This document shows positions 6,701-9,700 of a stretch of DNA of 64,000 nucleotides, piece after piece. This stretch comes from Mizuhopecten yessoensis (lineage: Eukaryota), in the NCBI RefSeq assembly GCF_002113885.1, contig NW_018403513.1, positions 1,216,726 through 1,280,725 on the forward strand, given 5' to 3'. The position numbers were made by a program, and so were the translations under genes. Within the stretch, counting starts at the first letter, position 1. The number at the start of each line of letters is the position of its first letter. The notes beneath the pieces were generated by a model that worked only from the letters and a program-made list of their open reading frames with translations, was not told where the DNA came from and ran no database searches.

Positions 6701-9700
6701 TGAAGAAGAAATCCCTCATTTTGGATCTCAGTAATTGTTTAACTAAACATCTATCTAATGCTATCTAAAATTTCGGCTGCTGGTTTTGTTTTCCGTTCTT
6801 TCTTTAAGCTGGCAACGTTGATTAATTTAAGAAAGGTCTACTTTTAAAACAGCAAACCATGAAAATGTTGAAAGAGGAATTTAGGCGAGGTTTATTGTCT
6901 AACTGGCGTTTCAGTAGCCTGCAAAGTTATGAACACATTTTTTGTTGTATTTTTTTTATTTATTTTTTCACAATTGTATTTGACATACACAAAAAATAGC
7001 ACATTCTCTCACACTGGCATACACACATTCAAAATAACTCTTAGACATCCTCATCCTTCACCTGATTTCATCATCATCATCATCATCATTATCATCATCA
7101 TCATCATTATCATCACATCATCATTATCATCGTAGATAGGAGAGGGGATTTCAGTTATTTTGTTGTTGTTGATTTAGCAATCCACGAATTGTCAATCACA
7201 TGAAAGATAATTCGAGCGAACATTTTACTGAAATCTATATACACTGTGTATCTGATATATACACTGTGTATCTGATATGTACACTGTGTATCTGATATAT
7301 ACACTGTGTATATAGAAGATACACAGTGTATATTGAAGATACACAGTGTATCTAGAAGATACACAGTGTATATTGAAGATACACAGTGTATATCAGATAC
7401 ACAGTATATATATCAGTTACACAGTGTATATATCTGATACACAGTGTATATACCAGATATACAGTGTATCTATCAGATACACAGTGTACATATCTGATAT
7501 ATACACTGGGTGGCTTCTATATACACTGTGTATCTTATATATATACTGTGTATCTTATATATACAATGTGTATCTAATATATACACTGTGTATCTTATAT
7601 ATACAATGTGTATCTTATATATACAATGTGTATCTGATATATACACTTTGTATCTGATATATACACTTTGTATCTGATATATACACTGGGTATCTTCTAT
7701 ATACACAGTGTATATATTAGATACACATTGTATATAGAAGATACACCATGTATATAGAAGATACAGAGTGCATATAGAAGATACACAGGGTATATATAAG
7801 ATACACATTGTATATAGAAGATACACAGTATATATATAAGATACACATTGTATATAGAAGATACACATTGTATATAGAACATACACAGTGTATATATCTG
7901 ATACACAGTGTATATACCAGATATACAGTGTATCTATCAGATACACAGTGTGTATATCAGATACACAGTGAATATATCAGATACACAGGGTACATATCAG
8001 ATACACAGTGTAGATATCAGATACACAGTGTAGATATCAGATACACAGTGAATATATCAGATACACATTGTATATAGAAGATACACTGTGTATCTTCTAT
8101 ATTCACTGATATATACACTGTGTCTCTGATATATACACTGTCTATCTTCTATATACACTGTGGATCTGATATATACACTGTGTATCTGATATATATACTG
8201 TGTATCTTATATATACACTGTATATCTTCTAAATACACTGTGTATCTTCTATATACACTGTGTATCTTCTATATACATTGTGTATCTTCTATATACACTG
8301 TGTATCTTCTATATACACTCTGTATCTTCTATATACAATGTGTATCTGATATATACACTGTGTATCTGATATATATACTGTGTATCTTCTATATACACTG
8401 TGTATCTTCTATATACACTCTTTATCTTCTATATACAATGTGTATCTGATATATACACTGTGTATCTTCTATATACACAGTGTATATAGAAGATACACAG
8501 TGTATATATAAGATACACAGTGTATATATCGGATACACATTGTATATAGAAGATAAAGAGTGTATATAGATGATACACAGTGTATATAGAAGATACACAG
8601 AGACATTGCCGTGTAAGTTGACATTTAACGAAGCACAAACATTAAAGTCAGATACACAGTGTATATATCAGATACGCATTGTATATATCAGATACACAGT
8701 GTATATAGAAGATACACAGTATATATATCAGATACACAGTATATATATCAGATACACAGTGAATATAGAAGATACACAGTGTATATAGATGATATACAGT
8801 GTATATATAAGATACACAGTGGATATATCAGATACACATTGTATATAGAAAATACACAGTGTATATAGCAGATATACAGTGTATATAGAAGATACACAGT
8901 GTAGATAGAAGATACACAGTGTATATATCAAATACACATTGTATATATCAGATACACAGTATATATATATCAGATACACAGTGTATATATCAGAAACACA
9001 TTGTATATATCAGATACACAGTGTATATATCAAATACAGAGTGTATATATCAGATACACATTGTATATATCAGATACGCAGTATATATATATCAGATACA
9101 CAGTGGATATATCAGATACACATTGTATATAGAAGATACAAAGTGTATATAGACGATATACAGTGTATATATAAGATACACAGTGGATATATCAGATACA
9201 CATTGTATATAGACGATAAAGAGTGTATATAGAAGATACACATTGTATATAGAAGATACACAGTGTATATAGACAATATACAGTGTATATATAAGATACA
9301 CAGCGTATATATCAGATACACATTGTATATAGAAGATAAAGAGTGTATCTTCTATATACACTCTTTATCTTCTACATACAATGTGTATCTGATATATACA
9401 CTTTGTATCTGATATATATACTGTGTATCTGATATATATACTGTGTATCTGATATATACAATGTGTTTCTGATATATACACTGTGTATCTGATACATACA
9501 CTGTGTATCTGATATATACAATGTGTTTCTGATATATACACTGTGTATCTGATATATACACTGTGTATCTGACTTTAATGTTTGTCCTTCGTTAAATGTC
9601 AACTTACACGGCAATGTCTGGAATAATAACTAAATGATAATAAACACAGGTGCATGATGTATGTTGAAATATGAAATGAAGGTGTGGAAATGTGGGGAAA

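What the first reader, a model, noticed from the sequence alone, without database searches (positions are those of the whole stretch)
7235..9619. Fold-back satellite that flips orientation six times and has captured an inverted copy of its own flank
Seen: the 20-bp unit is quasi-palindromic (TACAC-W-GTGTA). The array alternates orientation in about seven blocks, with switches near 7310, 7490, 7705, 8085, 8478 and 9345, each at the unit's internal palindrome. A 49-bp non-repetitive segment at 8601-8649 (AGACATTGCCGTG...TTAAAGTC) is the reverse complement, with 1 mismatch, of the unique DNA just right of the array (9571-9619), so 8601-9619 is bounded by inverted repeats. Inference: this records polymerase template switching or fold-back synthesis that ran out of the array into the flank and back, i.e. 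satellite growth by snap-back replication rather than simple slippage. It would also form long dsRNA in the 9.2-kb first coding intron of the cyclase pre-mRNA.
Basis: partly seen in the sequence, partly recalled or inferred. Interest (0 to 1): 0.7.

Follow-up and report, generated by a model that had tools for sequence, protein, structure and literature searches.

The report
Flipping minisatellite, likely assembly artefact
A real, nearly palindromic 20-base repeat sits in an intron of an animal cyclase gene, but its six flips and its inverted copy of neighbouring DNA are seen only in this draft genome, and the two joins tested are missing from independent sequencing runs, so they are likely reconstruction errors rather than a new way for repeats to grow.

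Summary
The string is as described: 113 units, six orientation switches at the palindromic core, and 8601-8649 is the reverse complement of 9571-9619 with one mismatch. The inverted copy is 75 bp (74/75), then falls to background. Independent data do not back it. In 6 of 6 whole-genome-sized contig sets (5 samples, 4 studies) the insert is covered only by the native flank contig, which runs unbroken and carries G, not C, at 8634. In 2 of 2 sets laid over switch 8479, no listed contig crosses it, and flat depth leaves no room for a hidden one. Repeat contigs stand at 32-119 times flank depth, while no 31-mer occurs over 5 times in the assembled array, so the true array is likely longer and collapsed here. 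Best reading: an ordinary head-to-tail minisatellite, rebuilt as a mosaic that likely includes fold-back molecules. Against: two toy assemblers did not reproduce six flips, local mirror copies are real in the string, and contig cleaning can erase single-copy joins. The scan noted inverted-flank palindromes in other genomes, but not this array. Spanning long reads would settle it.

The parts
7236..9570 (.). 20-bp quasi-palindromic minisatellite as assembled (113 units; unit matches its own reverse complement at 14/20); real, single locus in G000, likely collapsed
   Evidence: repeat contigs in all 6 contig sets
7236..7305 (+). Block 1, orientation F (left end)
7306..7490 (-). Block 2, orientation R
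7491..7707 (+). Block 3, orientation F
7708..8087 (-). Block 4, orientation R
8088..8479 (+). Block 5, orientation F
8449..8509 (.). Switch 5: perfect 30+1+30 palindrome; not bridged in 2 of 2 contig sets
8480..8600 (-). Block 6a, orientation R; 8510-8600 mirrors 8378-8468 (one-unit slip)
8601..8675 (-). 75-bp inverted copy of the array's right end (49 bp flank part 8601-8649 + 26 bp of units), 1 mismatch at 8634; join at 8600/8601 not seen in 6 of 6 contig sets
8650..9342 (-). Block 6b, orientation R; patchwork of exact pieces of 63 bp or less shared with the end block, out of order
9305..9399 (.). Switch 6: 44-bp mirror arms (1 mismatch) around a 7-nt loop; reads as a snap-back on the minus strand
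9343..9570 (+). Block 7, orientation F (right end); last 26 bp and its join to the flank are confirmed by contigs
9571..9619 (+). Native right flank, source of the insert; one unbroken contig per run
3319..3763 (+). Predicted first coding exon of a receptor guanylyl cyclase (ANF_receptor domain); kinase-like and cyclase exons follow at 20.8-27.5 kb
3764..12983 (+). Predicted first coding intron (9,220 bp) that holds the array
   Evidence: prediction only

Best explanation
This is a real single-locus 20-bp minisatellite whose true array is likely longer and likely head-to-tail, and the six flips and the 75-bp inverted end copy are likely artefacts of rebuilding it from short reads. Shown: the unit is nearly self-complementary, both assembled ends point the same way, and the tested joins are absent from independent contigs. 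Inferred: the assembler filled the repeat with a mosaic of read-sized pieces. At the palindromic core it likely took up fold-back molecules made during library preparation or amplification, or made loose joins. After an odd number of flips the fill ran back out through the right end for 49 bases, and this piece was then butted onto the fill coming from the left at 8600/8601. The exact software step is not identified.
For: (1) Insert: in 6 of 6 contig sets (X1, X2, X3, X7; X9, X4; 5 samples, 4 studies) 8603-8644 is covered by one contig only. It has G at 8634, continues past 8601 into the native flank and runs 253-1031 bp unbroken. If the assembly were true, the graph would break there into 33-, 61- and 90-bp pieces. 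Keeping G 6 times out of 6 from an equal-depth bubble has p=0.016. (2) Switch 8479: none of 16 listed pieces (of 48) crosses it. Depth is flat at 6055.1 over 8443-8466 in X9 and 2022.9 over 8451-8466 in X4, so no contig starts there; a junction contig would have to be 46 bp or longer and be listed. Switches 7305 (38-bp exact inverted match) and 7707 (56/61 alike) would lie on the same place. (3) Control: 50-60-bp repeat contigs at up to 1.1 times flank depth survive cleaning in 4 of 6 sets. (4) Single repeat contigs stand at 32-119 times flank depth, against a maximum 31-mer count of 5 and 1649 of 1937 singletons in the assembly. (5) The inverted copy is read-sized (75 bp), and no exact repeat in the array exceeds 70 bp. 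(6) G000 is a fragmented draft: 82,659 contigs, 27 N runs in 464 kb. (7) Strand-flipping chimeric reads at inverted repeats and palindromes are a described library artefact (PMC10908179, abstract and section 6).
Against: (1) The two strands of the array share no exact word over 11 nt, so an exact-overlap walk cannot flip unaided. (2) Toy walks did not reproduce the pattern; 0 flips at 0 or 0.2% fold-back reads, 2 in 7.4 kb at 1%, 7 in 10.3 kb at 5%, against 6 in 2.3 kb here; no walk-out into the flank in 48 walks; 3 flips in 34 kb with an 11-nt fallback, 0 at 13-17 nt; no walk-out in 80 walks. (3) 8510-8600 mirrors its neighbour at 78/80, the only such pair of 4,755 in-register pairs scored. 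(4) There is no N and no microhomology at 8600/8601. (5) Logan contigs pass through SPAdes-like cleaning (PMC12424806, passages), so they show presence, not absence. (7) None of the runs is known to be the assembled individual. (8) Contig depth is a rough copy measure, and flank depth may be halved by heterozygosity.
Confidence: 0.67

Rival explanations
1. Real but private allele: in the assembled animal's lineage, replication or repair polymerase switched strands at the palindromic cores several times and once ran 49 bases into the flank before returning.
For: Switches are in register on the core; mirror arms of 30, 44 and about 91 bp; predicted hairpins of -8 to -9 kcal/mol per three pure units; only this array of 33 scanned has both orientations; toy assemblers fail to make six flips. 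Short template switches are known in human DNA (PMC5453318, passages) and fold-back inversions at yeast breaks (PMC11724301, abstract).
Against: A process giving 6 flips per 113 units should leave the same core junctions in other animals with larger arrays; none seen in 2 of 2 sets. Block 6b (692 bp) is not a mirror of block 7 (223 bp) although its outer 75 bp differ by one base. All five samples appear to have far more copious arrays.
Confidence: 0.16
2. Real and shared: flips and insert exist in the population as single-copy joins inside a long array, and contig cleaning removed them in every run.
For: Short single-copy links between paths at 500-1600x depth are what SPAdes-like heuristics prune (method in PMC12424806; the pruning rule itself is recalled); such pruning would repeat across runs. 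Real satellite inversions exist in beetles (PMC13081366, passages).
Against: Other single-copy-depth repeat contigs survive, one at the same place in X4 and X9 (8473-8520, depth 14.5 and 11.4). G is kept in 6 of 6 sets.
Confidence: 0.14
3. 8601-9619 is a Foldback-type or miniature DNA transposon whose terminal inverted repeats contain the 20-bp units.
For: 75-bp inverted arms with a non-repeat outer part and repeat inner part.
Against: The end sequence has only these 2 places in G000; no target-site duplication (ACACAG left, GGAATA right); the unit occurs only at this locus.
Confidence: 0.03

Closest known systems
Library fold-back chimeras at inverted repeats and palindromes (PDSM model, PMC10908179; abstract and section 6 read)
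   Same: Strand change at a near-perfect palindrome, with short mirror arms.
   Different: Described for single human reads; here it would have been built into an assembly six times. The raw reads could not be seen.
Four-point template switch (Loytynoja and Goldman 2017, PMC5453318; passages read)
   Same: A nearby fragment copied in reverse complement gives inverted repeats around an inverted spacer.
   Different: Those events were called against an ancestral allele and inspected in resequencing data; here the joins fail in independent contigs and there is no ancestral allele.
Inverted triplications: ODIRA (PMC4689423, PMC10766183; search listing only) and small inverted triplications (PMC13334657; abstract)
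   Same: Direct/inverted/direct blocks with short inverted repeats at the joins; block sizes near the reported 148/160/148 bp.
   Different: The flank piece has two copies, not three, and most blocks are not mirror copies of their neighbours.
Tribolium madens satellite macro-dyad symmetries (PMC13081366; passages read)
   Same: Satellite subarrays alternate in orientation.
   Different: Multi-megabase regions, thousands of conserved inversion sites, confirmed on raw HiFi reads; here one 2.3-kb intronic array with unconfirmed joins.
Ordinary intronic minisatellite (VNTR; general knowledge)
   Same: Single locus, 20-bp unit, units 86% alike on average.
   Different: The unit is 70% self-complementary, the highest of 33 arrays scanned.

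Membership tests
Single-locus minisatellite | Tandem 10-100-bp unit at one locus | tested here: met
   Period 20; all 12 and 25 pattern hits lie in this array
Single-locus minisatellite | Present in independent samples | tested here: met
   Repeat contigs and the right join in 6 of 6 contig sets
In vivo template-switch event | Nearby fragment copied in reverse complement | tested here: met
   74/75 inverted copy; mirror arms at 8479 and 9352, in the assembled string
In vivo template-switch event | Junction present in genomic molecules | tested here: inconclusive
   Absent from cleaned contigs: insert 0 of 6, switch 8479 0 of 2; raw DNA reads not available
In vivo template-switch event | Explained from an ancestral allele by four switch points | not testable with these tools
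   G000 has no relatives held
Inverted triplication (ODIRA / SIT) | Three copies, direct-inverted-direct | tested here: not met
   Flank piece has 2 places
Inverted triplication (ODIRA / SIT) | Inverted block mirrors the adjacent block over its length | tested here: not met
   Met only for block 6a; background or out of register elsewhere
Satellite macro-dyad symmetry (Tribolium type) | Conserved, multi-copy inversion sites | tested here: not met
   The F-to-R palindrome has 3 places in this array and 1 isolated place elsewhere; no junction contig
Satellite macro-dyad symmetry (Tribolium type) | Confirmed on raw long reads | not testable with these tools
   No long-read run listed as such
Foldback / TIR transposon | Dispersed copies | tested here: not met
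Foldback / TIR transposon | Target-site duplication | tested here: not met
Library fold-back chimera | Strand change at a palindrome with arms within one read or insert | tested here: met
   Arms of 9-44 bp at the six switches
Library fold-back chimera | Low-frequency clipped reads in the source library | not testable with these tools
   Source raw reads not available

The most novel reading that the evidence does not exclude
A minisatellite whose unit is its own snap-back primer flips orientation about once per 19 units in living chromosomes and can pull in its own flank, giving a natural, PCR-scorable reporter of fold-back replication and a long double-stranded RNA inside a receptor guanylyl cyclase intron.
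Probability: 0.15. Interest if true: 0.55.

Novelty: not a real feature. Interest (0 to 1): 0.15.

Why it matters
If it is an artefact, the lesson is practical: orientation switches and inverted flank captures inside gap-free repeats of short-read drafts should not be read as biology, and self-complementary units are the ones at risk (1 of 33 arrays here). If long reads confirmed it, it would be a compact natural case of repeated fold-back synthesis driving repeat turnover, testable in single molecules.

Tried and rejected
RNA: no RNA holder listed; raw RNA runs X19 and X20 laid 0 reads on 8435-8665 (about 19% of each run read), which is no test of expression, editing or junctions. Share of indexed words: 0.41-0.46 in 15 rows against a flank-touching share of 0.49; compatible with few array words being held, but indexing rules are unknown, so it is not used as evidence. 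'Joints: none' is not exhaustive for short contigs and is not leaned on. Transposon-end reading rejected. Search for the same signature elsewhere: of 33 arrays in 464 kb (window plus 400 kb of C186) only this one has both orientations. Flank-word hits in 2 other long arrays were boundary effects, and none of the 5 other long arrays inspected holds a flank island. The blast filter missed the positive control and was dropped. The word-chain version found it plus 5 other short local inverted pairs, not characterised. One search timed out. Toy assemblers did not reproduce six flips or a walk-out; they lack error correction and pair information. Literature searches (listings and abstract starts only) showed no report of a flipping quasi-palindromic minisatellite nor of this gap-filling artefact; the library lacks most subscription papers. 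No supplements were read.

Full report
Observation. Parsing on the core TACAC-W-GTGTA gives 113 units between 7236 and 9570 in seven blocks, F-R-F-R-F-R-F, with switches at 7305, about 7490, 7707, 8087, 8479 and about 9342. Five lie exactly on a core and one carries 4 extra bases. 8601-8649 is the reverse complement of 9571-9619 with one mismatch (8634 C for G). A 24-mer of it has only these 2 places in G000 at up to 2 mismatches. Two unit-dimer patterns hit only this array (12 and 25 matches), so it is a single-locus minisatellite, not a dispersed satellite.

Setting. The array lies in a predicted 9,220-bp first coding intron (3764-12983, GT..AG, frame kept) of a receptor guanylyl cyclase on the + strand. 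Pfam finds ANF_receptor, kinase-like and Guanylate_cyc pieces in order (4 of 5 exon-like frames, 3 of 5). G000 is a 988-Mb draft in 82,659 contigs with 27 N runs in the 464 kb examined. Other notes of this scan call the animal a scallop; I did not test that.

Anatomy. The inverted copy is 75 bp: 74/75 from 8601 inward, then 20-24 of 25, the level of random unit pairs (17.1/20). On the minus strand the insert is a direct jump from the flank back into a unit, with no microhomology and no N. Mirror arms at the switches are 9, 9, 9, 15, 30 and 44 bp beyond the centre. Block 6a is a near-perfect mirror of its neighbour with a one-unit slip (78/80, the only such pair among 4,755 scored). Block 6b is 692 bp, whereas the end block it should have copied is 223 bp; they share only out-of-order exact pieces of 63 bp or less. 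Of 33 tandem arrays in 464 kb, only this one has words on both strands, and it has the most self-complementary unit (0.70 against 0.33-0.57). So the flips are tied to the palindrome under any reading.

Independent data, insert. I laid 8560-8700 on contigs of X1, X2, X3 and X7 and 8435-8665 on X9 and X4: 6 runs, 5 samples, 4 studies, DNA by size or by the tool's guess. In all six the insert is covered by one contig at single-copy depth. It reads G at 8634, leaves the stretch at 8601 into the native flank sequence, and is 253-1031 bp long. If the assembly were the genome, a k=31 graph would break here into 33-, 61- and 90-bp pieces, one bridging 8600/8601. None was seen.

Independent data, switch. 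At 8479 the listed contigs stop at the core from either side (16 of 48 pieces shown). Summed depth is identical across 8443-8466 in X9 and 8451-8466 in X4, so no contig starts there. A hidden junction contig would need 46 bp or more and would be among the longest, which are listed. The other two F-to-R switches are at least 90% like this one and would lie on the same place. Short repeat contigs at up to 1.1 times flank depth do survive in 4 of 6 sets, one at the same place in X4 and X9, so cleaning does not remove every single-copy path.

Array size. The deepest listed repeat contig is 32, 39, 64, 64, 50 and 119 times the flank contig in X1, X2, X3, X7, X4 and X9. In the assembled array no 31-mer occurs more than 5 times and 1649 of 1937 are singletons. 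Depth ratios are rough, but the gap is large: the true array is likely several times longer and more homogeneous, so the 2.3 kb is likely a mosaic whose inner order and orientation cannot be trusted.

Mechanism. My best reading (0.67) is a head-to-tail array rebuilt from short reads. Shown: both assembled ends point the same way, so no flip is required; tested joins are missing elsewhere; pieces are read-sized. Inferred: fold-back molecules from library preparation, described at palindromes in PMC10908179 (abstract and section 6), or loose joins at the 13-17-nt near-palindrome, flipped the fill. This step is not demonstrated. The strands share no exact word over 11 nt. My toy walks gave 0 flips at 0-0.2% fold-back reads, 7 in 10.3 kb at 5%, and 3 in 34 kb with an 11-nt fallback, with no walk-out in 128 walks. 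Real density is 6 in 2.3 kb.

Rivals. A private in vivo allele (0.16) fits the clean, in-register junctions, but so active a process should leave the same junctions in other animals. A shared structure erased by contig cleaning (0.14) cannot be excluded, because Logan contigs follow SPAdes-like heuristics (PMC12424806, passages). A Foldback transposon (0.03) fails on copy number and target duplication.

RNA. As assembled, 7236-8600 folds at -813 kcal/mol with a 61-bp helix; with blocks turned one way it folds at -424 with a 15-bp helix. The long-dsRNA idea therefore stands or falls with the flips.

Known systems. Even if real, this would be a new variant of a known kind. Five searches listed no paper on this exact pattern.

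Verdict. The minisatellite is real and ordinary; the headline structure is likely not in the chromosome. Interest 0.15.

Noticed in passing
window 9637-9712: Short dispersed repeat just right of the array: 27 other places at 75-82% identity, a lower bound.
   Followed up: no
window 7068-7131: (TCA)n microsatellite, about 22 copies, 100 bp left of the array.
   Followed up: no
window 8473-8520: A 50-bp repeat variant at single-copy depth appears at the same place in X4 and X9, suggesting stable inner landmarks of the true array shared between samples.
   Followed up: partly
window 8664-8699 (laid place only): A 71-bp contig in X2 and X3, and a loose end in X1 and X7, show diverged relatives of the unit not found in the window.
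   Followed up: no
window 36107-36712: 24-bp repeat with strong GC skew (-0.37 in its 2-kb bin), possibly a coding Pro/Thr-rich repeat.
   Followed up: no
window 21275: Single N inside the cyclase gene, the only N in the window.
   Followed up: no
G000:C186 954980-955050 and 955848-955918: 71-bp exact direct duplicate of non-repeat DNA 870 bp apart; several other read-sized near-exact local duplicates on this scaffold may be further closing errors.
   Followed up: partly
G000:C186 824061-828735, 842473-845383, 969067-972725, 1028180-1030794, 1034354-1037738: Five more gap-free minisatellites of 2.6-4.7 kb within 400 kb, all in one orientation; their true lengths may also be collapsed.
   Followed up: partly
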